A DNA stretch of 64,000 bases from Gnetum montanum (lineage: Eukaryota; Plantae; Gnetophyta). The notes beneath the pieces are model-generated. The model was given only the letters and a program-made list of their open reading frames with translations. It was not told the origin of the DNA and made no database searches. The stretch is taken from the NCBI GenBank assembly GCA_015680685.1, contig MNCI01003349.1:126049-190048 (forward strand), read 5' to 3'. Positions 16,969 through 64,000 of this stretch are shown here, one piece after another (position 1 is the stretch's first letter; every line of letters begins with the position of its first letter). The position numbers and the translations under genes were made by a program.

Positions 16969-17497
16969 CATAATGGTTTATTTTGGTGCTTCATGGGCAT
17001 TGACGGTGTCATCCATAATGACTTGTTCTAGCACTTCATGGGTACTAATAGCACCATCCATAATGGTCCATTTTGATGCTTCATGTGCATCAATTGCCTT
17101 GTTCGTAATGGCCCATTCTAGTGCTCTGCAGGCATCAACCGCCTTGTTCATAATGGTCCATTCTGGTGCTCCGCGGGCATCGACAATGTCATCCATAATG
17201 ATCCCTTTTGGTGCTGTGTAGGCACCGATGGTGTAGTCTATAGGAACCCATCTTGATGCTCCATTGGCACCAATGGTGCCATCCATAGTGGCCCATTCTA
17301 GCACTCCATGAACATTGATGATACTATTCATAATGGCCCATTCTAATGCTTTGTGGGCATCGATGGCGTTGTCCATAGTGGTTGATTTCAGCACACCACA
17401 GGCATTGATCGCACTGCTAGTAATGGCCAATTCCAGTTCCCTGCATGTATTGATGATGCCATCGATAATGGCTTATTTCTATGCCTTTTGGCATTGA
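16969..17497. repeat. 45-bp tandem repeat, 12 copies, inside element B
   Basis: Unit CATAATGGCCCATTCTAGTGCTCYGCAGGCATCRACNGCCTTGTT, with starts at 16969, 17014, 17059 ... 17464 in exact 45-nt register. Confidence 0.92.
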
Positions 17498-18928: not shown

Positions 18929-20013
18929 ATGAAAGTTGCAACATACAACGTGCTTGCAAGATCCCTTGTGAGTGAGAAAAAACATCCGATATGTCCACCA
19001 TGGGCCTTGGATTTACAACAATATTGATACCCATGCATTTTAGCAGAATTACAAGATTTGGATGTTGATGTTTTATGCCTAAAAGAAGCCTTTCCATGGG
19101 AATTTCTATACCAATTCTAGCCAAATTTGGAAAATATGGGGTTCAGAGGTATTTGTAAGCAAAAAGGTTCTCTTGGAAGTTCTTCTTTCAAACCATTTAG
19201 ATAAGCCTATTGCAAAAATGGTAACATGGATGATTGTGTGATATTTTATAAAGAAGATAAGTTTGAATTGGTACAAGGATTTTAATGGAGTTTAAAAAAT
19301 ATGATTTGTGAAATTCTAGAACTTCAAACCATGGAAAAGAAAGAACAATCATGATTTTGGAAAAATCACATAGCCTTGGCAGTAAATCTAAAAACCCATC
19401 TATCAAGAAGATGTGTATGTATAGTCAACACACATTTAATTGCCAAACCAACAGGTTCAGATGTTAGATTATGCCAAGGAGCATAGTTGATTAAGAAAAT
19501 AGAGGAAATTTTGAAGAATAAGTTATTCTTGAGCTATACTGATCCAATTCCATTTATTCTTTGTGGAGACTTCAATGCAAAAGTTGAAAGTGGTGTTTAT
19601 CAATTCTTAAAATATGGATGTGGAAAGGAATCTTTGGATGATCAACTTGATTTGAAGAAGAGGTTTCCATCAATTCAACATGCAATTCCATTGGCTAATG
19701 CATATTCTACTTATTTTGAATCTTCAATAGATAAATTAGATTCTAGAATTTAGAAACAAATGATGTTAATTGTTAGTACTCAACAAGAACCATAGTTTAC
19801 CAATTACTCTATTTTGATTAATGAAGATGGATCAACAAAATTATTTATTGAAACTTTAGATCATATTTCGTGTGACGTTTGATTTTTCCAAGTTGCCAAA
19901 TTACTAAAGTTAATTTCTAAAGAAGAAGTGGAGAAAAATCAAGATCAAGCTTTGCCATTTTGAATAAGACCATGTGATCATATACCACTTATGGTAGAAT
20001 TACAATTACTTCC
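18929..20013 (+). pseudogene. CCR4-like: Intronless CCR4-like deadenylase (EEP superfamily), disrupted; copy B
   Basis: MKVATYNVLA..CPPWALD..DVDVLCLKE..DDCVIFYKEDKFELV..VNTHL..DVRLCQ..IPFILCGDFN..HAIPLANAYS..EP*FTNY..FIETLDHI..ALP..PCDHIPLMVEL. Collinear with the plant CCR4a/b nuclease domain. Confidence 0.92.
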
Positions 20014-29411: not shown

Positions 29412-30866
29412 CACTCTCTCCATGAAAATTATTTCTCATGGAAGTTCTTAGGGTGTGCTATATAAAGATCTTTCTCCACTTTCCATGTTGCTTCTTGTAC
29501 TTAATGTCTTTCCCAAATAGACTTAACATTAGAGTCACCTTACTCAACTTTCTCTCCTTCTTTTCAATAATCTTAATTGATTGTTCATGAAACTGACATT
29601 AGGTTAAAGCTCTATAGCTTGCAAATCTATCTTATGACTAGGATCTACAACATATTTCCTCAATATGAAAACATGAAATATGTCATGAATTAACTACAAC
29701 TATTAAAAAATATTTAGTTGATAGATAATATCACCAATTTTTCTCAAAATAAAAAAGAAACCAATGTAGTGAGGAGCTAACTTTCCTCTTCTACTAAATC
29801 TCATAATTTCTTTTAAATATGAAACTTTAAGAAAAATATGTTCATCAATGCTGAATTCTAATGGTCATCTTCTATTCTTGGAATACTTGAAATATTTTTC
29901 CTGTGCTACCTACAGTCTATTATTAACCATTTCAGTTTGTTCTTTAGCTTCATTAATGATGTCTAATGTAGTCTTCTCTTTGTCCTTGATGGAATTTTAG
30001 AAACTAGGTGTATGACAGGGTCTACCATACAACATTTCATAAGATGCTATTTTAAGCTAGCCTAATATTCATTATTGTAAGCAAATTCCACTAATGGAAG
30101 AATTTTATCTCATATATCTACATAGTATAAAGCACAACTTGAACCATATCTTCTAGAATCTATTTATCTAACCATCTATTTGTGAGTGATACATTTACCT
30201 GAGATTCAATGTTGAGCCCACACTCTTCTAAAATGATGATGAAAATATGGAAGTGAACTTAGAATCCTTTTCTAACATAATCTTATTTATAAATCCAAGC
30301 AATGTAACAATCTCTTATAAAAACATATGAGTAACCTCATCTACATTAGCTATTGTTTTGATGGCCAAGAAGTGAGAAGATTTGGTTAAAAGGTTTATGA
30401 TTACAAGAACAAAATCTTTCCAACTTCTAGTATAAGGAAAACTAGTGATAAAATACATGACAATGGTTTCTCATTTTCATAGTGGAATGGTGTGTGAATG
30501 AAGATAACCACTAGGTCTCTGATGCTTTACCTTCACCTATTGACATACCAAGCACTTAGCTAGATACTCATCCACATCTTTCTTCATACTAAACCACCAA
30601 TACCACCTCTTGATTCTTTGATACATCTTATCATTTCGTAGATGCATATGATACTTTCTTAAATGATCCTTATTAAGTAGCTTATATTTGACTATAGCTA
30701 GCACATATACCATATTATTAAATCTCAATGGACTAGAATTATCAACTAAGAATGTTGGATCTTTTGGAGAAAGGTGTACAATCTTCTTTTGATACCAAGA
30801 ATTTGAAGCTTGATAAAAAGCTATCTCATCCTTAAGACTAGGCATGATAGTAAGGCTATAGAGTTT
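29412..30866 (-). pseudogene. Ty3/gypsy chromovirus (Tekay-like) integrase plus chromodomain remnant
   Basis: H..DKMYQRIKRWYWWFSMKKDVDEYLAKCLVCQ*VKVKHQRPSGYL (zinc-binding), LTKSSHFL, HDIFHVFILRKY, and EATW (chromodomain). Confidence 0.88.
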
Positions 30867-33800
30867 TCCTAAGGATAAAAAATTTAGGAGGGTTGAATAA
30901 GTTCCTCAATTTGAACAATCAAGACACCAAAAAATGCACTCAAAATTACATGGTATCCTAACTTGGGCACGTCCACACTTAGAGGGTATAATCCTTACAT
31001 ACCCCTAAACTCTTTTCCTTCAAAAATGTGGTTTAAAGGGAATCACAACCTTCATAAAGTTTGAGCTTTGTACAAGGTGTTCTTTCATAGAAACTCACAC
31101 AAATCCACAAGGTTCCAACAAGCTCAAAATGTGATTTTAAGGATCCCACAACCTTTATAATGATGTCAACTCCACATAGAGTGTTTTCTTACTGGAAACA
31201 CACTCAACCCTACAAGGTCCCAATAAGCTCATTAGATGCCTTCTCATAAGAAGCACATCAATCCAACAAGGTTACAAAGAGAAAAAGAGATCAAAGAGAG
31301 AACGTAACTAAGCTTTATAAGTTCCTTGATTTAAAGTTCTCATAATACAACTTACAATTGATAGAGAATTGAAGGATTAATTATATTACAAGATATAGAC
31401 AATGATGGAATAATCAGATGAATAGTGCTTTCTCTTTAACAAGGATTTCATATTATTTTAAATCCTTTTTCTTTTCAAATAGCCTTCAAAATTCATGCAA
31501 TGGCTAGGAAATGACTAGTTAGGATGTCTTATTCAAGCTTGGTGAGACATCACCAAAAATTCATGTTGTAAATTATAACCTTCATTTTCCAAATTGAGGT
31601 AAGTTTTGATTGTAAATGTAAGATTTGTAGTCCATGAGCTACAATATTGCATGCATTAGCTTTTTTGGGGCTAAAAAATGCCTCAAAAGTTATTATTGCC
31701 TTACTTCCCAAGTAGAGCAAGATACCTCATTACTATATTTGGGCTTGGGAAGGTTGAAAATGCCTTGGGAAAGGCCAAAAGTAGCATTTTAATGGGTTTT
31801 CATAGGGGTATAGCTTGAACTACGCTCGAACTATCTACTCTTGGGTGTAGATGGAATAGATGGAATTTTTCATTTCCAACCTAGCATAGTCACCATCAAA
31901 ACCTAGCCTAGATGTGGCATTGGAATTGTTGGGATTTTCCATTTTGGAATTGGTGACATTGTCCATTTCCATTTCCATTTTCCTAGTAGTGCCAACATAG
32001 TCCTCACAAGTCTTTAGCAGTTGCAACATGGGTAGTGTAGACAACATTTTCCATGATTTTCAAAATTTTCCAACAACTTTAGCATAGTCCACCAAGGCTA
32101 GTAGAGTTGGGATGGTGTTAGCATAGTCACAAAAGTTCATTTACTATTTATAGTAAATGAATGGACTTTGGTGGATACGGTGTATACCAAACTTACTATA
32201 AATGGTAACCATGCTGAAAGTTGTAGCCATTGTAACATGCAAATTTATATCAATCTTTCAGCAATTAGGATAGTGATGTGCAAGCCTCAAAAGTAGCAAT
32301 TCCATACCTATAAAACCCAAACATAATCACCTTATTCCAGTTCTAGATTTTGAAGCATTTTCCATAGCCCAAAAAAGCAATTGAGCATTTTCAAAAGCCA
32401 AGAGCCTTTTTAAAACCTGAAACACATATGAAAACATAAAATTGGTAGCTATGCTAGGCATAGAAACTCCCACATAATACCATTCCACTAAGGGTGGAAC
32501 ACTAATCCATGACCATGATTTCTGATCCTAGTGGAAAGTAGTGTGGAGCTGCTAGAAACTAGAGCTGGGAAGTATTTGGATCATGGAGTTTTAAGTGCAG
32601 ACCATAGGCTCTAATGGACTATAAGCCCCTTCAAGAAACTTCTTGTGCACCTACCATAGAATTTGTACCTTTTGAACCCACCTCTTTATTTTCCAATTTT
32701 AATAAAGTCATAGTTCATTTTTGTGTAGATTTGATTTTACATTTTTTTTTTGTGTTAATTTTCCATTTCGGATTTGCAATTTCATTTCCACTTACATTTC
32801 CATTTTCATTTAAGTTTACATTTTCATTTCTGTTTATGTTTACATTTACATTTACATTGTCATTTTACACTTGTGTGAGTTTGTAGGTGATTTGCTAGAT
32901 CATCTAGGGTGCCTTGGATCTTGTTTTCAGAGGTCCTTGGGATTTGAGGCTAAAACTATTTTGATGCTTGGGATATTCCAGTTTCTATTCTAGAAACCAA
33001 ATTTCCCAAGTTGAATAGTTTTTTGGTGCTTGAAAATCCTTTTTCAAGTCTTTTTCCAACACCAAGTTTGCTACATTTCCAACTTTAAGAGCCAATTTCA
33101 TTATTCTGTTGGTTGTTTTTGCAATGAGTTGGGTGTTTTTTCTATATTTTCACAGCAAGTCATTAGATTCCTTGGAACTAGTGTACTTTAAATCTAAAAC
33201 ATTTTCCATTACAAAAGCCTTATCCCATTCCAAAAGCCCTTTTTCATTTCAAGACCCATTGCGGTTGTTGGAAAAACCTCTTTTTTTCCATTTTCACCAC
33301 TTAGCATAGTTGCTTGAAAATTTCCTAGTACACGGCATAGGACATGATCGTATACTATGTAGTATTTCATAGTAGTAGTTTTCCACTGTCTTTTCATTTT
33401 TGGTCAACTATGTTAGTGGATTATCCCACTTATTTTGTTTTTACTAAAAATAGTAAAAAGCCTAAAATCATCTTTTGACAATATCTATTAGCTGATCAAT
33501 TGTCCTTCTCCTTAACTTGAGAAATATGGCATTCAGCCAAGATGTAGTTCATGTCTATGAATTGAAAGATCCTACGATCATAGAATGAAGATAATCACTT
33601 AGACAAAGGGGTAAAAACTCAAATTTTTTAGTTATCAATGAGGAGTTCTACAACTTCCTCTATGCCAAGATACAAGTTGGACTCTTAACACCATGCTCTG
33701 AATCTGACACTAACCATTAGTTCAAAATTATACATTGGGATGGGAAAGAATACATGCCATATCCTTATGACCAAATATCCCTCAATGACTTTTATGCACA

Positions 33801-37699: not shown

Positions 37700-39450
37700 C
37701 ATGACTACACTAGCCTAGCATATTCAAGAATGTTATAGATTATTTGCAAATCATCTAGCCTCCAATTGACATCAAACACCCATGCCATCTTTCCAAACCC
37801 TAGCCAGAGCTCTTGACAAGCTTGAAACTTTGTCAAATTCACCAAATGAAGTCAAATACTAATAAAAACTATGATTACAATGGAGGGGGGATGTGACTAC
37901 ACTAGACCAATGTAGTCACAAGGATTACCATTGGGATTGATCATAAAAATAGTGAAGAACATCAAAGCTACCATGGCATAATCTCCACACCTCCTAGGAC
38001 TCTTAGTAATCATAAACTAAAAGTAGAAGCAAAAAATTCATCATTTGCCATCTTAAAATGCATTTCCCAAGGGTGACTATGCTAGGCTAGTGTAGTCAGT
38101 GATGGTGCCCAATGTAGTCCACCTACAAATCCAAAAACAAGTTATTTCCCAATCAAACCCACTTCCCAAGAGCCTCAAAACCTAGCAAAGCTAAAAACCA
38201 AGACAAAACTTTCCATTTTCCCTATTTTTGATATTTCCCAACCCCAACTATGCTAGAGATTGCATGACTATGCTAGGCCAATGTAGTCATTGATGGTGCC
38301 CAATGTAGTCAACCTAAAATTGACAAAAAATTACCATAAATAACTCCAACCCACTTTTAGCAAACCTTGAAACCCTGCTAGAGTCAATTTTGGCCATAAA
38401 ACCTAGGAGTTTCCATTATTTCAATCCCATAGATGCTGGAATTGGTATGACTATACTAGGCCAACGTAGTCATGAGTATAACCTAATGTAGTCCACTTAG
38501 AAAATGCCAAAATATGCTAGAAATAGCCAAGGTTAACTTCCAAAAATACCTAGAACCTTGCCAGAGCACCTTGAGATCTTGTAACCTTGGGAAATGAGCA
38601 AAAATCCATCATTTTCATCCCAAACCTCTCAACTATGCTAGGAATTACATACCTATGCTAGGCCAGCGTAGTCAAGTAGTATGTGGCCATTACAAGACCC
38701 AAGCAATCATCAAAATTAACAATTTTGATACTAAAACCCTAGTTAGAAACACTAGTGACCTTGGGAGTCCATAAGCATGGTCGATTGGGTAAGGAAACTT
38801 ACAAAAAATCATTTCCCATGCATGACTACATTGGGGAGGTCTATGACTGCCCAACTTAGCCATAGTAGGAACCCATTTTATGGCAACATTAATTACTAGT
38901 ATACCACTCAGAATGGTTCAAAACTAACTTAGAAAGCCTAGAACCCTATTCCACCCCATTCAATTGCAATTCCACTCTTTTTCAATCATGAAAATATCAA
39001 ATTTCCCATGACTATGTTGGCACCATGCATGACTATGCTCACCCAATGTAATAAAATGGGAAATGCAATAAAACCCACTTTCATTGTTCAAATTCAACCT
39101 CCAAACATCCAAGTCAGTTCTCCAATGATCCTACATTCACCTAGGAAGCTAGTAGAGTCCTAATCCCAACCCCGAAACCCCATGAATTCATTTTTTCTAT
39201 GTGACTATGCTGGGCCTACCATGACTACGTTGGTCCAATATAGTCACCAATGGAAGCACGATTTTCAAGCTTCTAGGAGGTGAAAATAGTGTAAAAACTT
39301 GCTAATCCTTGATACCCACCCCTTGTGCCAGTTGTCTAGATCATCAGGAGCCCGTAAGTGATCATACTGAGCATGGGAAACTACCCATCAATGTTGAATA
39401 TGCTAGGGAATGCATGACTATGCTAGCCTAGTGTAGTCACAAGAAAAAAT
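37700..39450. repeat. ~180-200-bp degenerate tandem array in the 3' region of element C
   Basis: Recurrent hairpin core TGACTATGCTAGGCCAATGTAGTCA at ~37701, 37893, 38074, 38263, 38447, 38650, 39220 and 39413. Confidence 0.75.
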
Positions 39451-42400
39451 GTCAATTTTGCCTTAAAAATAGCTCTAGAATGATCCCTCAAGTGCCCAAA
39501 CTCCTTTAGCAACCATGTAGCCTTATACCATGGTCTGCTAAGGCCTAAAACTAACAAAATCTAACCTTGTTTTACCAATATTGATCAATTTTTATCACAT
39601 GTATTTTGTTTTAATGGAATTGACCTTGTTTCATGATGTTTTGACTTGTTTTGGTCTTGTTATGCATTATTGACCATGATTACGATCAGTTGACCCTATT
39701 TAGTTTCATCATATCTTTAATTTCATCATATCCACATTATTTTCTTTAATATAGACTTTGTTAACCCTTGTTTAGCCTTTGATTGGTGTTAAGTGATGGG
39801 GTTTGACCATCTTTGACCATCATTTGACACCATGTAACACTGACTTGCCAAGGCCTTAAACTGGCAACATGGCTTGCTAAGGCATAAAATTGGCAAAATT
39901 GTAACCATAATTGGCCATATTTGATCTTATACTACCCTTGGTGACCTCTATTAACCATGTTTTGACCTATTTTGGGCATCAATTTAATTTTTTTCAATCC
40001 ACTTTGTCTTTATTATTAGAGTATTTTGCATTGTTTTAACATTATTCAACCATTATATCACACATGTGTTACTTGATGTGCTTATGTTGTCATGTAGGAA
40101 TGAGCTAGGAGAATGGTCTTAAAGCCTAAAATAAACCTCTCTCATGATGTTGTTAGATCAAAGTGACCTTACTTACCCAAATCTTAAGCTTGAAACCATT
40201 CTACTATACAACCATAACATCTTGAAGTGGCCTGATGACCATTGAGCTTGAAGTTAAATGCATCATGGAGGGTCCCTTAGTTGAAATTCTCATCTAGACC
40301 ATGCTGGTGGGAAGAAAGCACTCAAAACCAAGTTTCTCACTAGAAATTAAGCTTGCTCATGACATCATCAAACCCTTGTAATGCAACATTAAAGCCATTA
40401 CAGAGCCTTGATTACATCTAATGCTCACATGTTTGCTTGTAGTATTGTTTACCCTTGTTGATAGGCTACAATGAATGACTGATGTTGATGATTTTGATGG
40501 TCTACAACAAGCAAGCTTTCATGCTCTTTCTCTCTCTATTTGGCATAATGAATGAACTGCAAGATTTGTAACATCTAATGCACATTACATAGATCCCTTT
40601 ATGTTGTGACAATGGTGACCCATTGTGACTTGGTTTGCTGGTTATCTAGTATGGCCTTATGCATTGTATTGTAACAACATGACTTCTTTGTGTGGTTTTC
40701 TTGTTCTATTGGAGTTGTACTTGTAGGATGAAGCTTGAAATCATCATGGAGGTGAAACTTGCTATAGTAGTAAGTCATCATGTGACCTTGATGCACAAGA
40801 TTTGGTGAGTTTTTCTTGCCATATCAAGAGTGCTTGTCTCACATCATTATCATTACCATCCCTTGAGCCCAACCCCATAGCCTGATCATAACCTTCCTTA
40901 CCCTTGAGTAACAATGATGACCTTTGTTTGACACTTATGCATTATGGCCATTTAACATCTCCTTCTTCATGCTCCACCATCAAGTTTGTTGAATGTAATA
41001 CATCTCATTCAATTGGAAAACAAAATCAAAATTGGCCTTGGTAATAAAACCTAATGAAGGTTTTTCTCCAACAAAAAAAATTACCAAGAAGACGAATGAC
41101 TAATGAAGCATAAAAAGGCAAACCGATGGCTTCAAAAATGCAAAGGAAGAAGCCCAATGGCCAATGAAACCTTGGAACACAGTGTTGGTTTCTCAAACAC
41201 ATTGACGTGTGACTAACACTTCAAAAGATGAAGCACCAAGACCACATTGATTGATTAACATATCATTGCCATGAATGTAATGATGATGTCAACATTTTGA
41301 ATTCATTATTAGCCTCCATAACTATTTCCCTATAGCAAATGATTGACATTATCATAATCTTATTCCATCATCATGAAAATCACTCTTTAGATTGGTTTGA
41401 CACTATTTAATCAAGCTTTGAGAGGGAATGTTGGTGATGGATCTACAGTGGTGTTTTGTATTCTTTTTTAATGTCTTTTGGGTGAATCATCAAAACATCA
41501 ACAAAGAGGGACCAATGAAACACCACCAAAAATTCATGTTGTAAATTATAATCTTCATTTTTCAACTTGAGGCAAGTTCTTATTGTAAATGTAAGATTTG
41601 TAGTCCATGAGCTACAATCTTACATACCTTAGCTTTTTGGAGCTAAAGAATGCCTTAAAAGTTATTATTACCTCACTTCCCAAGTGGAAAAAAGTACCTC
41701 ATGACTATATTTGTGCTTGGGAAGGTCAAAAATTCCTTGGGAATGACCAAAGTTAGTATTTTCGTGGGTTTTCTTAGGGGTATAGCCTCAAATACGTTGG
41801 AAACATATATCCTAGGATGTAGATGGAATAGATGGAAATTTCCATTTCTAACCTAGCATAGTCATCACTAAAACCCAACATAGATTTAGTGTTGGAATAT
41901 TTGGGATTTTCCATTTTAGAATTGGTGACATTTTCCTTTTTCATTTCCATTTTCATTTTCATAGCAGTGGCCATTGTAGTCATCCTAAGTCTTTAGAAGT
42001 TTTAGCATGACTAGTGTAGATAGCATTTTTTATTAATTCTAGCATTTCCCATAATTTCTAGTAATTTCTAGCATTTTCCAAAGCCTTCACATTTTTCATG
42101 ATTTTCAACTTTTTCCAACAACTTTAGCATAGTCCACCAAGGCCAATGTAGTTAGGATGGTATCAATGTAGTCACAAAAGTCCATTTACTATTTATAGTA
42201 AATAGATGAACTTTCATGGCTATGATGTATTCCAAACTTACTATAACTGGTAACTACATTGAAAATTGTAGCCATTGTAACTTGCAAATTAACATCAATC
42301 TATATGTAATTAGGATAGTGATGTGTAGGCCCAAAAAATGGCAATTTCATACCTATATAATCCAAATGTAAATACCTTATTTTGGTTTCATATTTTAAAG

Positions 42401-43491
42401 CATTTTCCATAGCCCAAAAGAGCAATTGAGTAATTTCCATAGCCTAGAGCCTTTAACAATCTTAAACATCTTTGGCAGTAAAAAATGGTGGCTACGCTAT
42501 GTGTAGTAACTCCCATGTAACTCCCATGGAATAGCGATTTGTGACCATGATTACTGATCCTAGTGGAAACAGTGTAGAGTTGCTAGAAATGGAGCTAGGA
42601 ATTATCTAGATTGTGGAGTTTCAAGTGCAAACCATAGGCTCCAATAGACTTTGAGCCCCTTTAAGAAAGTTCTTGTGCACCTAGCACAAAATCTATACTT
42701 TTTGAACCCATCACTTTATTTTCCATTTTTAATAAAGTCATAGTTCATTATTATACATATATGATTTCATGATTCAATTTTTGTGTTTTTATCCATTCCA
42801 GATCTACAATTCCATTTTTACTTATGTTTCCATTTTCATTTAAGTTTACATTTTCAATTTTTTTATGTTTACATCACCATTTTATACTTTTTTAAGTCCT
42901 TGGATGATCAGCTAGACTGTCCAGGGTGCCTTGGATCCTGTTTCTGGAGGCCCTTGGAATCTAAGGCTAAATTTTTTTTGGTGCCTACGATATTATAGTT
43001 TTTGTTCTAGCAACTAAATTTTCTAGGTCCAACACTTGGAACGTTGCACTAAAAATTGGCAACTTATAGGTGGGACATCCCACTAGAAATTAGGACATCT
43101 CATCTAGGATGTTTCATTTGGGACATTACAGTCGCAATTGGGACATCTTGCTATTTTTATGGTACATCTAACTTGAACCTAAGCTTTCATCTTTAGGACA
43201 TCTACTGATCTTTTGGTATGTCTAGGTAGATACCAAAATGTCTTCGTTTGGCTTGTAGGCTTCATGCATCCTTCAAATCCTAGAGTCTTGATTGAGTATA
43301 TGGTGATGCAACTTTCATCTTAATCTTCTCAACTCTCTCTTGTCCCAATCTTGTATTTTACTATATCTAAATGCTTTAGTTATCTTTTTCTAATCTTTCA
43401 AAGTCTTAAAAGATACCAATAAACACATTTTTTACATTGTCCAATTTCTAAGGTTTTAACATACCAAAAGCTCAACAAGCTTGCCCTTTTT

Positions 43492-44063
43492 TGTGACATC
43501 CCATTCCTAGATGTGATGGAAAACATCAAATATATGTTATATTAGACATTATGCATAACAAGATAATATACCAAATGTAAAATATATGTAGCATTCAAGA
43601 TTATGTGTAAAGGAAATAAAACAAAAAATGAAAAAAGAAAAAAAGGAAAGAATGCTTTATTGATATGAAATAGAGTATCCAGATCATGTTCTACGAGTGT
43701 TCCTTAGGGTTTTCTTCCTTCGATATCTATCCCATTAGAGGCAATCTAGCACTGGCACGACAGTTAGGCCTACAACCTAGCTAGAAGGGATGGTTAGTCC
43801 TATCCTACTTCACCCAACACTTGTGACTCACCTTTACTGGCTCTGCCACTCGATGCTGGCATGACCTCTAAGCCCAAGTATAAATGCCTTAGGTCAAACT
43901 CCCAAAGGTTACCTTGAGAGACATGTCCATTATTACAATGCATCCTATCAGGTCTCAATTACAACAGACCCTTTCAGGTTTTTTTTATAATAATGATAAC
44001 ATTGTTATGAAGAGGCACCCTCTTCATTATGCAACAAAACCATTTTAGAATGAGGATGTTAAA
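43492..44063 (-). mobile_element. Solo LTR (572 bp) of the CCR4-carrying family (B subfamily)
   Basis: Reverse complement aligns end-to-end with 15200-15771; TGTGACATCCC...GGATGTTAAA termini. No matching TSD. Confidence 0.9.
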
Positions 44064-44564
44064 AGGGGGATTTATTTCTCCATAATATTCTACAAAATAA
44101 GATGAAGAATGGATAGAAAAAAAGGTCTTTAATACAAAGCTAGCAAGAGAACTAGGAGAAGGTTCAAGGAAATTACCTAATGTTGAAAATCAAGGCCTAA
44201 AAGTCTATATTGAGTTGTAGTTAGAAAATGATCAAAGTAGAAAGATATAAAAAAAGGTAATAATTACTATTTACTACACCTTTGAGATATGTTAGTTTTT
44301 CTCCTTTTCGTCGATAAATTACATTTGTATATATATTTACATTAGCATTTAGAAAATGTGATTTTTTGAAACTTCAATCCTTAAGTTTGAAGTGATTTTT
44401 TCTATAAAAAAGAAAGATTTAAGCTTTCAGTAGTTAGTCAATCTTGTATATGCCATCGTCCCAATGTTGGTAGGCATGGTTGTTAGTTATCCATGAGCCT
44501 TTCAAGAATTGTTAAGAGTATATCAACTTAGAACAAGAACAAGAGGCTAACGGGCACGGGCCAA

Positions 44565-50869: not shown

Positions 50870-53800
50870 GTAGTTGGGGATGCTAAGAGGCATCCAAAAA
50901 AGGAGGAGGTGGGTCATCCTAACCCTTGTCACTAGGGCTGTTGACATCTCCTAGTGCCTGAAACATAACAATATAAAACTATTTAGTAATCAACAACAAG
51001 CCTATAACTCAAACTTAAGCAAAACCAAAACAATGAAACTAAAATAAAAACACATCAAAACTATGGGAAATCAGGCTTGATGAATTCTAAGGGAAGATGT
51101 TGAAGACTAGTCTCTAAGTGATGGAGAATCTGGTCTTTTGTCATGTCGGCCTAGTCAACATCTCTAAAATTAATGTCCATGAGGATGTTTGTCTCATTCA
51201 CACTAGTGGGTGGCTCTCATGATACCGTAGCCATAGAAACCTCACCTACAACCATAGAGACTTGAGAAGTAGGAGATTTAGCCCTTATGAGAGTGCTTTC
51301 AAAGAGTTTGTAAATGCTCTCAGCTTGGATCCCCTTGATTAACAGCTCCATATTTCACCATTTACTTGTCTTCTCCTCAAGCCACTTGAGATATGCCCCC
51401 TAATCAACCTTGTGTAGTCTATTGTGATATTTTTGTATTTGGCCCCACTATAGGACCTAGGCACAATAGTCCTTCCAGTCCTTAGCTTTGTAAGATATGA
51501 GGTCCCTTTGCATCTGCTACTTTACTATCTCTTTGGCAAGGGTCACCTTGTTATGGATGGCATTCCAATAGCAAGCCCATGTGATCTCCTTGGTCTGTAA
51601 GTTCTTTAAGTTAGCCACTTGGGCTTCCACAAAGGCCTTACAATCTTGAAGATTCCTAATTGTCTCAGCTTGCCTCTTGTTCTCCTCCTTCAAGGCCACA
51701 ACTTGCTCTTATAGGTATTCATTGTACCTTTGGAATTTCAACGAAGTCATGGCACATGAAATTGCAAGATCAATGATAGTCTCATATAGCCTTCATGGTA
51801 CATTCTTAACCTTAGAAGGGAGTTTGAGTAAGGATTCAATCTTCATGTCCTAGCTAGGGTTCAACAAAACTGATGGCACTATAAACAATGTATAATAAAA
51901 AATATTACCATAAGCACAACTTGCAACTTAAATAGCAATAACATAAGAAAAAAAATTAAAACCAAATATGCCTCTAAAATGAAAATAAAATGACTAGGGT
52001 AAATAAAACATAGTGCTTATTGATCTCTGGAGGAACTTGTTGCAATTGGTCGATGATGTTCTTGGGAATTCTGTGCATAGACTCCATCTTGTCTAGGACC
52101 TCTATCCATGGTTTCATGTTAAATGTAGGGGTAGAGGATTATGCTTGTGGCTTAGGAACTATAAAAAGCATAATAATCATTGAGTGGTTAGAACAAAAAC
52201 CTAAGATCAAACCATAAATATAGTGAGTAGTTCTAGAAGGTACGTATACCTGGCTTCTCCTCCTCTACAATAATAATGAGGGGTTTCCTTGGCAATGATT
52301 CATTGAACAGGGGATCTAGGTCATCCAACACCATGTTGGCCAATCCTTCCTTCTCATGCTACTATAGGAGGGCCTCCTTTGCACATTTCTACTCCTCTGC
52401 TACTATCGTGGATTGGGCCGCCATGTCCTATTGCCTATCTACAAGAGCAATAAACTAAAAATGTAAGAATGATTTAGCAATGTTACAACCTTATAACCTT
52501 AGAAACTAAAACATAGAAAAACCTAGAATAAATAAATAGCCAAAGTTGGCAATGTACCTATGACTACATGATGAGTCTTGCCAAGCTTCAACTTGAGCCT
52601 CCTTTTGCACAGCTACTCAAATGTTGGTGCTGCTTCTTCTATGAGCTATTTCAACTTTGTCTTGGCTACCTTGTCAGCCTCTACATGCAACTCTCAGGTC
52701 CTTGCAATGTTAGCTTGCACTGTGTGAGGCCCCACCCTCATGCTATTAGGGGATGCACACCACCTACCACTAAATCCCTTGGTGGTAATGGATAGTGACT
52801 CCCCAACCTCCTCTAGTGGGTTTCGGGCTTGCATGGTTGGATAAATATGCATTATCCAAGGCTTGGAGAATTGGTTTAGGTCTTGGCACATCCATTGCCC
52901 ATTCCTTCGTATGCCACATAAAATGCATAATGCATGTGACATAATGTAGAGACATCCTCATGGAATTTTAGGTTCTCCTCTTGAAGTCTTATAGTTAAAG
53001 GAGTAACTTAGTTGAACTAGTTATCCTTTGTTAGGACCTTCTTAAAGGTCCATCACTGTGAAATGTCGATCATCTTCTTTTGTGACAACAGCTTAGGAAA
53101 CACATAGGTTCTGAACATGGGATAAGATTCCCTTACTTCAAGCTCTATGAAATCATCCAAGGTCAACTTGTGGCCACGAAGAGCACTTGACCACACCTCA
53201 ACCTCCTCACAATGGCTTTCCTCCTTTGTTAGTTGGGTGAAAACCTTCATCCCTCTAGAGGGAACACCAAAGAGATCATGAAAGGTAGCCTTGCTGATAG
53301 ACATGATGACTGGCATACCTCAAATTTTTGTGTTGAATTGTCTAGCTTCTCCATTAAAGGTGTTAATGATGTTCAATGTCTCTGCTCTAGGGATGGAAGG
53401 GATAGGTGCGATGAAAACATCAAGTAAGCTTGCACAAGCAATTTTTGCTTGGATGTTTCTAGGTGCCTGCTTCCTCAACCAACTTTATGTTGGTCCCATC
53501 TCACTAAATTTTAGGATGAAGATAACCTTAGGGTATTCTAAAACTAATAAGGTGATGTTAGAAGAGGTGGAAGGTCCTACAAGGTAACAACAATCACTAG
53601 TTAGCCTAGGCATTAACACATCATAGGCAACCTAAGTATGACAAAAATAAAAAATTAAAATAATTAAAAAATTGAATACCCAAATAGCCTAAAATCATTG
53701 TAGCCATAAAAACATTAGCATAACACAATAAACCATAGCCTTTCATACCTTTCTTCTTTTTGTACGATGAACTTCATATGGAGTTCCCAACTACGATGCT

Positions 53801-56559: not shown

Positions 56560-59300
56560 AGTCAACATGGACAAATCCTAGAGCTTGGTAGAGGGTAAAA
56601 CCTCCATTCAACTTGCTACTTTGGATAACCATGCTGAGCTAGGCCTCATACATTGGGTCAGTGTTTCCCAAGGGGCTATAACATACATACACACTCTTTG
56701 GTGCTTACCAAGCCTTGATTTGAGACAAAGGTGGTTGCACATAGCTTGAAACCCTTAAAGCCACACCCAGCAGCTCTAAAACCCTATCATACCAAGTCGA
56801 AAGTGCCTAAAGCCTTGAGATATAATGAAGCAATGCTAAGGAGGGCTCCATCAACATTTCCCAACATGGATCTAGTGTGGATGGGTGGGGCATGACTTTT
56901 AAATACAAAAAGTCAACCATCTGTTTGCTATATTTTGACTCTAACACCCCTTCTAGCCCTTAGTAACCAAAATTTGATGAGAAACAAGTATAATTTTGCA
57001 TCATACACCTTTTCCACATTAGTGAACCCCCCATCCACACTTCCCAACATGTGTCTAGCATTGATGCCCAAGGAGTAAGCCATAAAAGATCTTTTTAGCC
57101 TCAAATGACCGTAAAATTCACTCTAGTAATCTTACTACTCCTCCAAAGTCTTTAGTAGTTGATAGTGGTCAAAACTTATGTCAATTTTAATAATTGAAAT
57201 CCTTCCCATGCTATTGAACCCTCCACCCATGTTGCCCAACATGGGTCTAGTGTGTATGCCCTAAGGATAAGCCATAAAATCCCTTTTGTGGTCTCAAATG
57301 ACCATAAATTCACTCTAGTAACTTTAATACCCCTCCATGATCTCCGGTAGTTAACAATGGTCAAAACTAGAGTTGATTTTCATACCTAAAACCTTATCCA
57401 CATTGGGGAACCATCCACCCACGTTGGCTAGTGTGGGTACCTTGGGGGTAAGACATAACACCTATTTTTTAACCAAAAATAGCTTTGAAATTTATCCTAG
57501 TGACCATATGACCATACCAAAGCCTCTTGAAGCCATCAAATGTAATAAAATATATAAAAAATAGCAAAACTCTAGCATCCTATTCCCATCCATGCTAAGG
57601 CCATGTTGTCTAGCATGGTTCAAGGGAGGGATGACTACAAAAAGAACCAATAAGCCCTTAGATCAGTTGATTTTGGTTCCAAATCTTCGTCATTGATCCC
57701 TACAACTTTGATAGCTTTGAAACCCTATAAAATCCAATAAAAATTGGCCAAAATCATGAACCCAATATGAGTTGTTCTAATAACAACCCCATCCATGCTT
57801 AGTAGCATTGCCCTACTGTGGATGATTGTGGTATGACCATAGACTTCCAAGATTGGCCTGAAAACTCACATGTACTGACTCCTTAATCTTCTTGAGGACT
57901 TTGGCAGCCATAACTAGTCAAAATCAAGTTCCATTTCATGATCACTCCCACTCCCATGCTGAGTAGCCCCCTTACCCATGCTAGCTAGCATGGGTCCAAC
58001 ATGGGTACCTTAAGGAAAGCCCATGGGATATCATAGATGAATCAAAGCAACTCAAATTGCACCATGTTCATCCTACAATCTTACCAACATTTCTAAAGGT
58101 CATGAAACTCAAGGAAACCAGTTAGAAGTTGTAAACCTGGATCATCCACACTGGGGTAAGGCTAGCGAGCATGGCCCAACATTGCTACAAGGGGGATGAC
58201 TTCCAGAACCATCTCAGAACCTTTAAAATTACCAAATTTTTATCCTAAATCCTAGCCATCAATATTGGAAATGCTAGAGGCACACATTCATGGTCAATTT
58301 GCTATCAAAACCTACCAAAACTTCATATCTTAGGGTATTCACACTAGGAAAGGCCTAAGACAATAGAAGCAATGTGGCTCTAGCATGGGGAAGTTACCTT
58401 ACCACTTTTGATAGAAAATTGACATCCCCAAAAGCTAAAAACCTATACCAGTGAAGCCCAAAACCTCATAGCCTTGAGTTGATGGGATTTTGACCTTAGG
58501 GAGGGATGATCATACCTTACCTTAAAAAACTTTCAAACCTAGCCAATTTTAAGTAAAAACCTTGGAAATCACTATTTGTGGCATTGGAAGCCTGAAAACT
58601 TAGTTGATCTACCTCCAAAGCCATTCCAAAATCAAAAAGCAAGAGTAACCCCACTAAGTCATGCTAGCCAGTGTGGCCTTAGCATGGGTAGAGTCTCCAA
58701 TATGATTTGACACTTAAAACTTCCTTAAAATAGTCTCAAAACTTGGCTAGGAAGCTCACAAATGCTAAACCCTAGCCTCTGCTATAGATTGATCCTATTA
58801 CAACCTAGATCTAGGCCATCCAAATTGAGCCCCCTTCCATCCATGTTGCCCAATGTGGCTTTGTTGTTGTTGGGGGGGGGGGGGGGGGGGGTGTGAATGT
58901 AACCTCAAGACCTACTCTTTCACCAATTTTAACCATAAAACTAACCAATTCTGATTGTTATGGCTTTGGGCTACCTTGGGAAGACCATGGAGCCCCAGTT
59001 TTAACCTTATAGAATCCAAAAAACCCAATTTCATTGGTATCCATGCTGGGGCTAAGCTAGCCAATGTTGCCCTAGTGTGGATGGCACTTCTAAGCCTCAA
59101 TGGGTGTTTGTAGAGGTTGAAATTGATACTAGAATTGATATATTTCCTTCCCTAGTACATTGTGCTAACCATGCCAGCCATTAGGAATTGACTCTACTCA
59201 AAATGATGTAGGAAGGTACCTAAACATCCCATCCATGCTGGGGGTCATCCCACCCATGTTGGCTAATGTGGGTCTAGGGTGGATACAAAAAAACCTTGCT
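56560..59300. repeat. ~190-bp degenerate tandem array in the 3' region of element D
   Basis: Recurrent CCCAACATGGGTCTAGTGTGGATG-like cores (~56862, 57043, 57234, 57990, 59260). Confidence 0.65.
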
Positions 59301-59799
59301 TTTTAGACTAAAAAGCCTCAAAATAGCCCCAATAGGTGTCCAAAATCATCTATCAACCTTATACCCTTAAACCATGGCTTGATAAGGCCTAAAATTGTCA
59401 AAATCGAACCCTTTTTTTTTTGAGAGAATGTTCGGGTTTGTATTACTAAAAGTTATGGTACACGAGTAAACAGTTACAATGGGGGGGACATCAGGGATGG
59501 CCCACTTTGAGGGGGGGNNNNNNNNNNNNNNNNNNNNNNNNNNNNNNNNNNNNNNNNNNNNNNNNNNNNNNNNNNNNNNNNNNNNNNNNNNNNNNNNNNN
59601 NNNNNNNNNNNNNNNNNNNNNNNNNNNNNNNNNNNNNNNNNNNNNNNNNNNNNNNNNNNNNNNNNNNNNNNNNNNNNNNNNNNNNNNNNNNTCCTCGGTG
59701 TCCATGAAGTTCGTGGCTTGTTGGATGCCTTGCATAGTAGCCTCTCTCCTGCTCCAGTCAGCCGATGAGTCCCCTGCATCAGGGTGAAATCTAGCGGAC

Positions 59800-61040
59800 G
59801 TGCGTCTGATGTGTCGTCTGAGCTCCCCTAGGAGCTCTCACAAATAATGTCCAAAATGCTATATGGGCAACGCCCCCCCTGAGCCACTGACGGGCACTGT
59901 GTACATGTGCTCGGTCAAGTTGTCGTTGCCGTTGCTCCTCCTCCTCCCTCAAGGTGCTCCTGCTCCTCCCGGGCCACCGCCTCCTAGGCCTGACGAGCCG
60001 CCTCTTCTTGGCGCAGCTCCTCCCTGATTCGGTCTTGGAGCTCATCAATGAGCTGGGCTCGCGAGGTTTCCATCATGAGTGTGTGCTGCCGGCTCAGTTG
60101 TTGTGCCTATTCACGAAGCTAGGCATCATGGTCAGCGTGCCACTGAGCCAGGGTCTCGGTCCACTTTGCCTCCGAAATTTGTTGCTCGGCCTCCCGAGCA
60201 GCAGCAATCGCCTGTTGCATTTCTGCCCCCAATTTGGGGGGGCACTGGGGGGTCAAGCGAGGGGGGGAGGGATTTCGACGAGAGCGGCTTCCCCAAGTGA
60301 GGTTCAAAGCAGTCTGCCGTTGCTGAGTGGCCGGGGTGGGGGAAATCGGGGTGGTGGGAGGGCATCAGCGAAGCGACCCCCAGGGGGGTAGAGGACGGGC
60401 CAGGAGCCCCTAGCCCCCCGCCCCCCACCACAAAGCCAAAATTAACCCCAAGTGGTGCCCACGTCGTTTATGGCGTAGGGCCTCAAGGAAGAACCGCGGC
60501 AGGTTAACCTGGGTGCCGTCCTTCAAGCACCTCAAGAAGGTGAAATGCAACCCTTGGAGCTTGGACACATTGCCCGACTGGACGAAAAAACGTTCCACCA
60601 AGGTGACGGCGCGAGCCCAGAGGCGCGGGAGAGAAGATCGAGGGACCTGGCGGCTCTACGTTCTCGAGGTTAGCCCCTCGAAAAAGGTCGTAGAGTTCTG
60701 GAGGTTGCGGGAGGTCGGTAGGATGACATCACCAACGGCCGGGACCCCCAAATAGTTGGCCAAGGCGGCTTCCGTGAGCCGAATTGCACGACCACGAAAG
60801 AAAGTTTGATCACCGTGCCAATTAGTAAAGAACGTGTTGTCAAGAAGGTCAGGGTCCTCGACTAGCCTCTACAGTAGGTCGGCCCAGCCGCACTGGCAGA
60901 CCATCTGCTAGAGTTCCGCGTCATTCTGGTAGACGGCGCAGTCAGGTTTATACGTCGGCGTCGCTTCCATGGTGTCCGTAAGCTCGCGCCACGCTCTGCA
61001 GGTTTGCAGGATAAGTCGCTGGGAGGGGGGGGGTTGCCGC
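59800..61040 (-). pseudogene. Extra reading frame in the LINE: putative plant transposon protein (Transposase_32/PF20167-like) domain plus coiled-coil tail
   Basis: One frame to ~59930, broken only by TAG/TGA stops, then an apparent frameshift: QCGWADLL*RLVEDPDLLDNTFFTNW..FRGRAIRLTEAALANYLGVPAVG..LRCLKDGTQVNLPRFFLEAL..HHLGLILAL, followed by a Q/E/R-rich coil. Confidence 0.7.
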
Positions 61041-64000
61041 CTATGCAAAGACCATGTAATTTTGCGCCTTCCAGGCGTGGCATAACAGCAACGCTGACCA
61101 GGAGTCACCATTAAATCTCCGCGGGGGGTGGGGGAGCATCCTGCATGCGTGCCAAGTGGCGATCATGCAAGGGCAGTCATAAATGAAGTGGGTGAACGTT
61201 TCGGAGCTAGTTCCACAGCGCGGACACGTGGTGTCGTGTGTGATGCCGCGCTGCTGTAGTATGGCATGTACGGGGAGCGCCACAGACTTTATCTGCCAGA
61301 GGAACATTTTGACTTTCTCAGGAAGCCGCCCGCGCCAGATCTCCTGCCAGCCATCCTCCAGGGGAAATTTTTGCGTCAGGATGACGTGCGGATCGAGGTG
61401 GATCCAGCCCAAGTGCAGCATTTCCCGCACGTGCCGATAGATGGTCTGCCAAGGGCGCGAAGCGTGCGATCCAGGCTGCCAAGGCGTGTATTTTTGACGG
61501 GCGATGCGAGCCCACTGGTTGCACTCTCTCAGCGCACGTGTCAGCCGGTGGACAAGCCGTTGTTGTCCCATTGTGCATTCATCTTCGAAAGTCGTGATCC
61601 CCAAGCCCCCCGCCTGACAAGGACAGGCGACGCGGTGCCAGTTTACAAGGCGAAGCTTGCTACCCCCTTTGTCCCCCCGCCAAATGAAGCCATGGATCAT
61701 GGCATTGATTTGGTGAATTATGGCCGAAGGGGGCACAGCGACCGCCGCCACAAAACGCGCAGTGGCCGTGAGGATCCCGGTAGCCACGAGGAGGCGACCC
61801 TTGTGGGTAAGAAAACGATTTGCCCAGTGGTGTATGCGCTTCTCGAGTTTGGACAGGAGGGGAGTCCAAGTATTGTTCCATCCCCATTGGAATAGTGGGA
61901 TACCAAGGTAGGTATCGGTGAGTTTGCCGGACTGAATGTTCAGGATTTGTGTAACTCGGTGCTGCACCTGCGGGTCCACATTGATGAAGTACGCCACCGA
62001 CTTTGTGCNNNNNNNNNNNNNNNNNNNNNNNNNNNNNNNNNNAAGCCACCCCCGCAATGTCCAGGCCCTCCACCCCCGAGGTACTGCAGTAAAATTGCAT
62101 GAGGTCCATGGCAATGATGAACAGTAAGGGGGACAGGGGGTCGCCTTGCCTCAGTCCACGACTAGGGGAGGAAAAGCCCACAATCGCCCACCCACGTCAA
62201 AGGAGAACCCTGCGGAGGACTGGATATGCAGACATAATTGGATAAAACCAGGGTCAAAGCCTTTCTTATGCATGATGTCATGTAAGGTGTCCCAACTAAG
62301 CGTATCGTATGCCTTAGCTATGTCTAGCTTGAGAAATAGACCAGGAAACCCCGTAGTACGGAGGGAATGAAGGACCTCTTGCATAAGAAGAACCTTATCC
62401 TGAAGGGTCCTACCATGAATGAAGCCTGCTTGATTGCGTCCAACCAACTTAGGCAAGAGGGGTCCCAGACGATTGACCAGGAGTTTGGAGAAGACACGAA
62501 TGAGAACATTGCACACACCAATGGGACGAAAGTGCTCTGGGCGGTGTGCATTCAATTGTTTTGGGATGTAGATGATGCGCGAGCAATTGAGTTCACGTCG
62601 TACCTATCGTCTGGCCAGCATGACGTTGAAAGCATCCAGAAGATTGGGCCCCACAACATCCAAGAAAGCTCTGAAGAACTCCAGTGACCAACCGTCCGGT
62701 CCAGGCGCTTTACCGCCCGACATGTTGTTGATGGTGTTAGTCAATTCTGTCACCGAGAAGGGGGCCAGAAGAAGTTGATTGTCCGCAGCAGTGAGCACCT
62801 TGGCCACATGGACGAAGATGGGCTGGGTGGGGTGCTTGGTCCAAATGCACCTCCAATAATGTGAGAGCTCGTTGGCGATTCCCTGTGGGTCTTCAACCAC
62901 CGCCACAGCCTGAGTATGGAGGCCACGGATGTGGGTTTCACCATGCGTCTTAGCCATGGCGAAGAAGAATTTCGTATGTCGGTCCCCCTCGCGGAGCCAT
63001 CTAATCCTGGATCGCTGCCGCCAATAGGTCTCCTCCTCGTGATCTAGACTTTGAAGTTGACGGAGAAGAAGCATCTCCTCCGAGTGCAGGTCCTCCCCAG
63101 TCTCTTGTCGCGCCTGGATGTGTCCGAGTCACTCCCGAACCATCTTGTGGCGAGTACGAAACGAAAACTTCTCCCCCACCGGGAGGGCCCGGATGGCCCA
63201 CTTGAGCCGAAGGAGAGCATCTTTGAGGAAGTTCCGAGGGTCCATCCGACCCAGCTGGTAATCGGCCCAGATGTCCTCCACCAGAGGGCGAAGCCACGGT
63301 TTGGTCAACCATGTGGTCTCGAACCGAAATGGGCATGGGGCTCGGTGTTGAGGTGGGCCAATGGACACGACTAGCGAGCGGTGGTCAGAAGAAGCCCACT
63401 CTTGCCCGGTCATGTTGACGGCGGTGTCGAGGAGGAGAGCAGAGCTAACGCAAACTCGATCAATGCGGGAGAGGACATGGTGCGTCCCTTTCCGTCAGTT
63501 GCTCCAGGTGAAACGACAGTTCGCAATGGACAGATTAACAAGAGAAGAGCGCTCAAGGAACTCCATGAAATCTAGCATGCCTAGAGGGGGGGGGGGGCGG
63601 CCCCCCCAGATTTCTCCCAAGGGTACAGACGCTGGTTGAAGTCACTAACAACCACCCAGGAGCCGTGATCAAGCACCAAGAAGGCCACCCGATTCAACTC
63701 GTGAAGCCGTGATTCCCAAGCCTATGCCCCATAGAAGTTGGTCAGCCAAAAACCATGGGCAGGGACGTGGACCGTGATGGTCTACGGGGAGGCATCCACC
63801 AGAGTGGTGGTGGGGCGTGCAAGAATGGCCAGGCCTCCGGCCCGGCCCTGGCTGGGGTGTAGGTAGGTGGTCCAGCCCGTCCACTGGAGGTGACCAGATT
63901 CCGCGGCCTGCAGCTTGGTTTCCTGGAGGCAGACCATATCACAATTCTCCTCTCTGACAATACGGCGTAGGGTATTTCGTTTATAGGGGGTACCCTACCC
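61041..64000 (-). pseudogene. LINE ORF2: APE endonuclease, reverse transcriptase and zf-RVT, with few lesions
   Basis: VCLQETK, SDFN, FTWSN, SRIDR, SSDH; KAPGPDG, FRPIGVCN, QAGFIHGR, LKLDIAKAYD, RGLRQGDPLSPLLF, YLGIPL, GGLG; CPRC..ET..HFIYDC; WKAQNYMVF. The catalytic YADD falls in an N gap. Confidence 0.95.

What the first reader, a model, noticed from the sequence alone, without database searches (positions are those of the whole stretch)
59412..61111. L1 LINE carrying an LTR-retrotransposon-type accessory domain between ORF2 and the poly(A) tail
Seen: directly after zf-RVT, a ~370-400-codon frame runs toward the poly(A) tail (59412-59421), with the same high GC content as ORF2. To ~59930 it is broken only by TAG/TGA stops explicable by single C-to-T changes. 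Its N-half (GWADLL..PDLLDNTFFTNW..FRGRAIRLTEAALANYLGVPAVG..GTQVNLPRFF) resembles the 'putative plant transposon protein' domain (Transposase_32-like) known from accessory ORFs of Athila/SIRE/Tat LTR elements; the C-half is coiled coil. One base removed at ~61044 would join ORF2's WKAQNYMVF to HRRQPPPSQRLILQTCRAWREL, so the domain may be a C-terminal fusion in the position where many plant L1s carry RNase H. Inference: module exchange between LTR and non-LTR retrotransposons, giving an unusual LINE architecture.
Basis: partly seen in the sequence, partly recalled or inferred. Interest (0 to 1): 0.8.

Follow-up and report, generated by a model that had tools for sequence, protein, structure and literature searches.

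The report
Plant LINE carrying a chaperone domain
A widespread plant jumping gene of the L1 type carries an extra stretch behind its copying enzyme: a domain likely related to accessory proteins of a different transposon class, a coiled coil, and a J-domain that would recruit the host's Hsp70 chaperone; a very distant L1 has the same layout.

Summary
This is a decayed copy of a many-copy L1 family. Contigs from 4 of 4 DNA runs (four organisms) cover ORF2, the extension and the poly(A) end. The extension is coding and does not stop near 59930: it continues through frame breaks into a J-domain with HPD. A distant L1 (L001, about 30% identical in ORF2) has the same order, with the domain in frame behind zf-RVT and a J-domain above Pfam's cut-off. 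That argues strongly against a one-off chimera or mis-join. The domain matches gymnosperm multi-copy ORFs whose predicted fold resembles Transposase_32/ATHILA. Its direct Pfam hit is weak (E 0.048), and LTR origin and direction of transfer are untested. Fusion is likely ancestral, but in this family the frame switch lies in a G-run of variable length, and its best-supported variant is out of frame. A conserved Met could also start a separate ORF3. Inferred function: targeted Hsp70 recruitment, most likely against silencing. No paper describing this layout turned up in seven searches.

The parts
63617..63994 (-). ORF2 APE endonuclease (element continues past the window end; frame break near the G12 run at 63586-63597)
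   Evidence: PF03372 E 2.8e-8
62229..62555 (-). ORF2 reverse transcriptase, N part (frame break near 62176, N gap 62009-62042 follow)
   Evidence: PF00078 E 1.1e-12; table 4
61152..61373 (-). zf-RVT zinc-binding region of ORF2
   Evidence: PF13966 E 3e-15
61021..61043 (-). Junction: TAG at 61043 that most other copies lack, then a 13-letter G-run (C-run on the coding strand) of variable length where the frame switches
   Evidence: tables 3, 4, 7, 8
60971..61021 (-). 17 codons read best in the accessory frame, co-linear with the end of ORF2 in L001
   Evidence: codon score 8.5 against 1.3 and -4.1 bits
60413..60970 (-). Accessory domain of about 185 aa starting at a conserved Met; likely Transposase_32/ATHILA-ORF1/PMD-like fold
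   Evidence: gymnosperm-only HMM iE 3.6e-16
60247..60412 (-). Pro/Gly-rich linker, frame uncertain
   Evidence: indels in other copies at 60246 and 60382; codon scores uninformative
59880..60246 (-). Coiled-coil-like stretch (61% E/Q/R/K/A), switching frame at about 59951
   Evidence: 47.4 bits in one frame, then 10.7 bits in the next; table 4. Coiled coil inferred from composition; no predictor was run
59692..59875 (-). J-domain (DnaJ) with HPD, broken by a frame shift at 59824, running into the N gap
   Evidence: Pfam top hit PF00226 E 0.13; 0 of 2000 shuffles reach its score on a J-domain HMM; tables 4, 7
59518..59691 (.). Assembly gap of 174 N; not bridged by any contig shown
59422..59517 (-). 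3' UTR with a 9-nt motif (59474-59482) and terminal TCTC shared with L001
59412..59421 (-). Poly(A) tail, family 3' end
   Evidence: 38 X1 contigs leave into unlike flanks here, median 230 nt, agreement 0.48 (table 7)

Best explanation
This is a decayed copy of a many-copy plant L1 LINE whose ORF2 is followed by an accessory module (a likely Transposase_32/ATHILA-type domain, a linker, a predicted coiled coil and a J-domain) that was likely fused to ORF2 in the lineage's ancestor and would recruit host Hsp70. Shown: the order of the parts, the coding signature, the spread through the family, and the same order in a distant L1 with the domain in frame behind zf-RVT. Inferred: a free-standing transposon accessory ORF was captured whole, start Met included, at the end of ORF2, and a J-domain was added behind its coiled coil. 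The domain would give targeting, the coiled coil oligomers, and the J-domain would load Hsp70 on the bound target, as the polyomavirus large T J-domain does (recalled). The most likely target is host silencing chromatin on new or old copies. My odds: architecture is a lineage feature 0.95; ancestral in-frame fusion 0.75; kinship to the PF20167 superfamily 0.8; J-domain worked with Hsp70 in active elements 0.8; anti-silencing or chromatin purpose 0.4.
For:: 30 of 30 bins covered in 4 of 4 runs. X1 depth is 960-5093 in the extension bins, 811-7209 in the ORF2 bins and 185-387 in the two flank bins. L001 holds DUF4283 ORF1 (4.5e-21), EN, RT, zf-RVT (3.7e-9), then the domain in the same frame, and DnaJ (1.2e-8, 35.4 bits, cut-off 27.8, profile 2-63 of 63); window and L001 extensions align co-linearly from residue 2 to 219 (26%, E 3e-18), Met against Met; the gymnosperm homologues show a Met-Gly-rich start motif at the same point; the 17 codons before the Met read best in the accessory frame, as a fusion predicts. 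Taxus homologue P0007 has TM 0.78 over 188 residues to a cluster that is 97% PF20167, and 10 of the 10 best family-bearing feature hits share one family or clan. Literature: a J-domain protein with Hsp70 acts in plant TE silencing, and TE-borne PMD proteins are proposed counter-silencers (PMC8616336, passages). DNAJ proteins bind SUVH1 and MBD6 (PMC11694752, passages).
Against: The direct PF20167 score is far below cut-off (14 against 45 bits). L001's domain and 41 of 41 homologues scanned gave no PF20167 hit at E 1. The Atlas marks its structural rows as under the bar for naming a family, and its feature scores for PF20167/ATHILA are 0.88/0.85, leads only. In this family the best-supported G-run variant is 2 letters shorter, which is not in frame with the domain (3 contigs each in X1 and X5, depth 71 of 456 and 635 of 1078, none in X6). 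L001's J-domain lacks an intact HPD, and the window and L001 J pieces do not align by BLASTP, so they may be separate captures. Only one independent locus was found (1 of 210 pattern matches), and both copies are decayed: L001 has 4 stops between zf-RVT and the domain's end, and a frame change after the domain. Nothing here tests function.
Confidence: 0.55

Rival explanations
1. Same architecture, but the J-domain serves the element's own replication: tethered to ORF2p, it brings Hsp70 to fold or activate the RT-RNA complex, as hepadnaviral RT needs Hsp40/Hsp70 (recalled).
For: In-frame position behind zf-RVT in L001; codon signal across the junction. Chaperones are among human L1 RNP interactors (PMC3753637, passages).
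Against: It does not explain the Transposase_32-like domain, whose homologues are free-standing proteins with basic, Ser-rich stretches. Most L1s do without a J-domain.
Confidence: 0.25
2. In this family the module is a separate ORF3 started at the Met at 60970 (reinitiation or a sub-genomic RNA), or is reached by a -1 slip on the C-run, not by an in-frame fusion. This is compatible with either function.
For: The Met has ACCATGG context and is conserved in L001 and the homologues. Run lengths read from shown rows are -2, -5 and +1, one out-of-frame class differing by steps of 3. That class includes 4 RNA reads of X14 (my reading of loose ends and gaps).
Against: An in-frame class also exists (-1: 5 X6 contigs by loose end, X5 piece 12). 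L001 is in frame. The codons before the Met look coding in the accessory frame. Homopolymer lengths in short contigs are unreliable, and only 24 of 189 loose-end rows and 24 of 2072 pieces were shown.
Confidence: 0.35
3. The accessory domain did not come from an LTR element. It is a general plant mobile-element module, and the gymnosperm homologues may sit in LINEs or DNA transposons, or the L1 lineage was the donor.
For: No call shows the context of P0004-P0044. None carries a Pfam gag, RT or integrase hit.
Against: PF20167 and ATHILA ORF1 are reported from Athila LTR elements (PMC11728184, passages), and these are the nearest named clusters.
Confidence: 0.3
4. A one-off 3' transduction, nested insertion or assembly mis-join.
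For: Short-read assembly with a 174-N gap that no shown contig bridges.
Against: Family-wide cover in four organisms, bridging contigs in 3 runs, and the same order without a gap in L001.
Confidence: 0.03

Closest known systems
Plant L1-clade LINEs (DUF4283 ORF1; APE-RT-zf-RVT ORF2), including those with an added RNase H
   Same: EN, RT, zf-RVT, poly(A) end; ORF1 with DUF4283 in L001. Extra domain downstream of RT, as with RNH (PMC5203782, passages).
   Different: No RNase H hit. Instead there are about 450 or more further codons with an accessory domain, coiled coil and J-domain.
Additional ORFs of plant LTR retrotransposons: PF20167 Transposase_32, PF03078 ATHILA ORF1, PF10536 PMD
   Same: Likely the same fold through homologue P0007; domain plus coiled coil; 3' position in the element (PMC7264820, parts 1-2 of 3; PMC13547354, passages).
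   Different: Here it lies in a non-LTR element, in frame with ORF2 in L001, and ends in a J-domain. Sequence score is below the family cut-off.
Plant chromatin J-domain proteins (SILENZIO; SDJ1/DNAJ1, SDJ2/DNAJ2)
   Same: J-domain linked to a non-chaperone targeting part; act at methylated TEs.
   Different: Host genes, not element-borne; no sequence kinship beyond the J-domain was tested.
LINEs with captured accessory enzymes (viral SF1 helicase in insect TRAS and Jockey elements)
   Same: Non-LTR elements that keep an extra domain with a proposed anti-silencing role (PMC6338049, part 1 of 4 and passages).
   Different: Different domain, clade and host.
Polyomavirus large T antigen J-domain; hepadnaviral RT activation by Hsp40/Hsp70 (both recalled, no call)
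   Same: A selfish element using Hsp70 through a J-domain.
   Different: Viruses; no homology implied.

Membership tests
L1-clade LINE | N-terminal APE endonuclease followed by RT in ORF2 | tested here: met
   PF03372 2.8e-8, PF00078 1.1e-12; L001 likewise
L1-clade LINE | zf-RVT/CCHC region after RT | tested here: met
   PF13966 3e-15, 3.7e-9 in L001
L1-clade LINE | Plant L1-type ORF1 (DUF4283) | tested here: inconclusive
   Outside the window; met in relative L001, E 4.5e-21
L1-clade LINE | Poly(A) 3' end at varied insertion sites | tested here: met
   A10 at 59412-59421; 38 contigs with unlike flanks
L1-clade LINE | Target-site duplication | tested here: inconclusive
   5' end lies beyond the window and no genome is held; none of 7 nt or more found in L001, whose 5' end is rearranged
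L1-clade LINE | RT tree placement in L1 clade | not tested
   No reference RT set was fetched
RNase H-bearing plant L1 | RNase H domain after zf-RVT | tested here: not met
   No RNase H/RVT_3 hit at E 1 in window or L001
PF20167 Transposase_32 | Score at Pfam gathering cut-off (45 bits) | tested here: not met
   14 bits, E 0.048; no hit for L001 or 41 of 41 homologues
PF20167 / ATHILA ORF1 / PMD superfamily | Shared fold | tested here: inconclusive
   Homologue P0007: TM 0.78 over 188 aa to a PF20167 cluster, 0.71 to a cluster with 14% PMD, both under the tool's naming bar. Own model pLDDT 60
LTR-retrotransposon additional ORF | Nearest homologues lie inside LTR elements | not testable with these tools
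   Plant genome context of P0004-P0044 could not be fetched
J-domain protein (PF00226) | Profile score at cut-off (27.8 bits) | tested here: inconclusive
   Met in L001 (35.4 bits); not in the window's frame-broken 48-aa piece (12.8 bits), which still beats 2000 of 2000 shuffles
J-domain protein (PF00226) | HPD motif between helices II and III | tested here: inconclusive
   Present in the window; not intact in the decayed L001 copy
J-domain protein (PF00226) | Stimulates Hsp70 ATPase | not testable with these tools
   Needs an assay

The most novel reading that the evidence does not exclude
An old, undescribed lineage of plant L1 elements encodes its own Hsp70 co-chaperone joined to an LTR-type accessory domain, and uses it as a targeted machine to take apart host silencing complexes. 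It would be a LINE counterpart to VANC-type anti-silencers and evidence of module trade between LTR and non-LTR elements, with fusion or separate expression set by a slippery C-run.
Probability: 0.3. Interest if true: 0.88.

Novelty: new variant of a known kind. Interest (0 to 1): 0.72.

Why it matters
L1 ORF2 is treated as a fixed EN-RT-zinc finger enzyme, with RNase H as the main plant add-on. A layout found in two L1s only about 30% alike, ending in a J-domain, points to a lineage-level innovation. J-domain and Hsp70 complexes take part in plant TE silencing, and the function of the Transposase_32/ATHILA/PMD domains is an open question. An element that ties such a domain to a J-domain offers a direct test: the HPD motif can be changed, and Hsp70 clients can be pulled down.

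Tried and rejected
Word-indexed homologue searches with the read-through frame (0 of 7995 candidates) and for fused long forms (0 of 7986) found nothing; both are weak negatives. No solved-structure match by sequence, Foldseek PDB or viral (0 at E 0.001), or VIA-align (best Z 2.8); the model is only pLDDT 60, so this says nothing on fold novelty. No relatives in viral contigs, prokaryote genomes or plasmids. Earlier findings: none. No RNA holder was listed. RNA run X14 gave 36 reads, all under 90% alike and in both orientations; they show related sequence in poly(A) RNA, not expression of this copy. A stretch at 53300-53590 looked like the same domain by eye and was rejected: no Pfam hit, no BLASTP, no HMM hit. 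No TSD was found in L001. Codon positions of the few RNA-subfamily differences shown (7 of 12 at third positions) are too few for a selection test. Paper searches for such an element listed none that describes it by title or abstract start; Repbase and most subscription journals are not covered. PMC3864347 was not held. Supplements were not read; the ORF2 domain tables of PMC5203782 could list rare domains. No complex prediction was run: a J-domain-Hsp70 pair would tend to pass by likeness to solved structures.
Full report
Verdict. The finding is real. It is a decayed copy of a many-copy plant L1 family whose ORF2 is followed by an accessory domain, a linker, a coiled-coil-like stretch and a J-domain. 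LTR origin and fusion in this family remain open.

Observation. The minus strand of 59412-64000 holds EN, RT and zf-RVT. Behind them a frame runs from 61045 with 8 internal stops to 59918. It has ORF2's GC by codon position (0.58/0.45/0.71 against 0.57/0.46/0.68). With ORF2-trained codon usage the domain 60970-60413 scores 46.6 bits; the other two frames score -45.6 and -30.3, and 0 of 2000 shuffles reach it. The top Pfam hit is Transposase_32, weakly: E 0.048, 14 bits, cut-off 45.

It is a family feature. No genome is held, so I used public runs. Of 21 runs listed, 8 hold part of the stretch; I laid 4 of these, one per organism label. All four cover 30 of 30 bins, with summed depth on the extension in the same range as on ORF2 and well above the flank (depth is not a copy number). 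At 59412, 38 X1 contigs leave into unlike flanks, as expected at a family's 3' end. On 60840-61200, 3 of the 24 pieces shown (of 2072) bridge 61044 with 31 or more letters on each side, one in each DNA run. No shown contig bridges the 174-N gap.

The missed part. In some contigs of all four runs a base is missing at 59951/2 and one is added at 59824 (table 4; 12 of 25 rows shown). Codon usage switches frame at the same places. The frames so indicated read more charged helix, then a J-domain with HPD. DnaJ is the top Pfam hit of the 48-aa piece (E 0.13). Against an HMM of three E. coli J-domains the X-bridged piece scores 13.5 bits, and the best of 2000 shuffles 4.8. Almost all of that comes from the HPD piece (12.8); the first helix adds little.

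An independent, distant L1. A metagenome scan gave 1 locus from 210 pattern matches. L001 is AT-rich (35-43% GC in the element) and 26-31% identical in ORF2 over the long alignments. It has DUF4283 ORF1, EN, RT and zf-RVT, then the accessory domain in the same frame. A charged linker of about 500 aa follows in the next frame, then a DnaJ domain above cut-off (E 1.2e-8). The two extensions align co-linearly over residues 2-219 (26%, E 3e-18). Both elements end in TCTC plus an A-run and share a 9-nt motif in the 3' UTR, seen once in L001 and five times in the 64-kb window. That supports linkage across the gap indirectly. Against: L001 is also decayed, its HPD is not intact, and the two J pieces do not align by BLASTP.

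What the domain is. A search of 1.84 billion representatives gave 4 hits: two Ginkgo proteins, one Taxus protein and the L001 fragment. A profile then gave 38 hits, all Taxus, which suggests a multi-copy element. An HMM of 23 gymnosperm rows alone finds the window domain at iE 3.6e-16 and L001 at 4.9e-7, and nothing else under iE 2 in either sequence. None of 41 homologues has a PF20167 hit. For Taxus P0007 the Atlas's nearest named clusters are PF20167 (features 0.88; TM 0.78 over 188 aa), ATHILA ORF-1 (0.85) and a cluster with some PMD (TM 0.71), all flagged as leads. My model (pLDDT 60) matches no solved or viral structure. PF20167 is reported in a sunflower Athila additional ORF and said to be related to ATHILA ORF1 (PMC11728184, passages). 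So the domain likely belongs to that superfamily without being a Pfam member. Whether its nearest relatives sit in LTR elements could not be checked.

Fusion or ORF3. The ORF2 TAG at 61043 is absent from 97/87/58% of depth in X1/X5/X6, and the frame switch lies in the G-run 61021-61033. For fusion: L001 is in frame, the 17 codons before the Met score best in the accessory frame, and some copies have a run one letter shorter (5 X6 contigs by loose end; X5 piece 12). Against: the only indel listed at 15% or more is two letters shorter (X1 71 of 456, X5 635 of 1078, X6 none). Loose ends and gaps imply -5 (4 X1 contigs, X5 piece 14), +1 (X5 piece 15) and -2 (X1 piece 7, 4 RNA reads of X14), all one out-of-frame class. 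A third class matches the window's own frame (-6 in 4 mixed X1 contigs; -3 in X6 piece 22). These lengths are my reading of shown rows only. The Met at 60970 has a strong context and aligns with a Met in L001 and the homologues. I put ancestral fusion at 0.75 and separate or slip-dependent expression in this family at 0.35.

How it likely works (inferred). A free-standing accessory ORF was captured whole behind ORF2, and a J-domain was added. A J-domain's known job is to load Hsp70 on a nearby client (established knowledge). The homologues carry basic, Ser-rich stretches, which I read as nuclear signals, and ATHILA-domain proteins are predicted to oligomerise by coiled coils (PMC13547354, passages). 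Plant silencing uses SILENZIO with Hsp70, and TE-borne PMD proteins are proposed counter-silencers (PMC8616336, passages). DNAJ proteins also bind SUVH1 and MBD6 (PMC11694752, passages). I therefore favour targeted remodelling of silencing complexes (0.4) over chaperoning of the element's own RT (0.25). None of this was tested.

Comparison and novelty. It has the L1 features that could be tested; TSD, ORF1 and tree placement were not settled in the window. It is not an RNase H-bearing L1 (PMC5203782, passages). LINEs with captured domains are known, such as SF1 helicase (PMC6338049, part 1 of 4 and passages). Additional ORFs are well known in LTR elements (PMC7264820, parts 1-2 of 3). Seven searches listed no paper that describes this layout by title or abstract start; Repbase, most subscription journals and supplements were not seen. 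A 2026 preprint on J-domain proteins with PICKLE (10.64898/2026.09.14.751395) was seen as a search listing only. Polyomavirus T antigen and hepadnaviral RT parallels are recalled. Rating: new variant of a known kind, interest 0.72.

Noticed in passing
window 53300-53590 (-): AT-rich decayed frame that resembles the hairpin motif of the accessory domain by eye; no Pfam, BLASTP or HMM support.
   Followed up: yes
window 6405-7589 (-): Retrotransposon gag remnant (PF03732, E 9e-4, below cut-off) with further decayed frames upstream to about 8460.
   Followed up: partly
window 30537-30905 (-): Integrase zinc-binding domain remnant (PF17921, E 4e-12).
   Followed up: partly
window 31662-33020 and 41634-43037: Direct repeats about 10 kb apart, 73-83% alike: a candidate old LTR pair.
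   Followed up: no
window 13132-15775, 19176-21060, also 9653-9921 and inverted at 43485-44064: Repeated segments, two with weak endonuclease/phosphatase-family fragments (PF03372, E 0.005-0.008).
   Followed up: partly
window 16967-17381: Nine 45-nt tandem units inside an open frame of 164 aa on the minus strand; no Pfam hit.
   Followed up: partly
window 28166-28370 and 28826-29030: Perfect 205-nt inverted repeat, each arm followed by a single N: likely an assembly artefact.
   Followed up: no
window 37700-39440 and 56800-59300: Arrays of diverged units of about 180-190 nt; the L1 tail abuts the second array.
   Followed up: no
L001 1-198 and 1948-2146: Near-perfect inverted copy of the ORF1-ORF2 boundary at the contig start: assembly artefact or 5' inversion.
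   Followed up: no
L001 6001-7500: The linker is about 500 aa and charged, against about 55 aa and Pro-rich in the window: the spacer changes freely while domain order stays.
   Followed up: partly
P0004 (Ginkgo protein; not a window locus): Appears to hold two tandem copies of the accessory domain.
   Followed up: no
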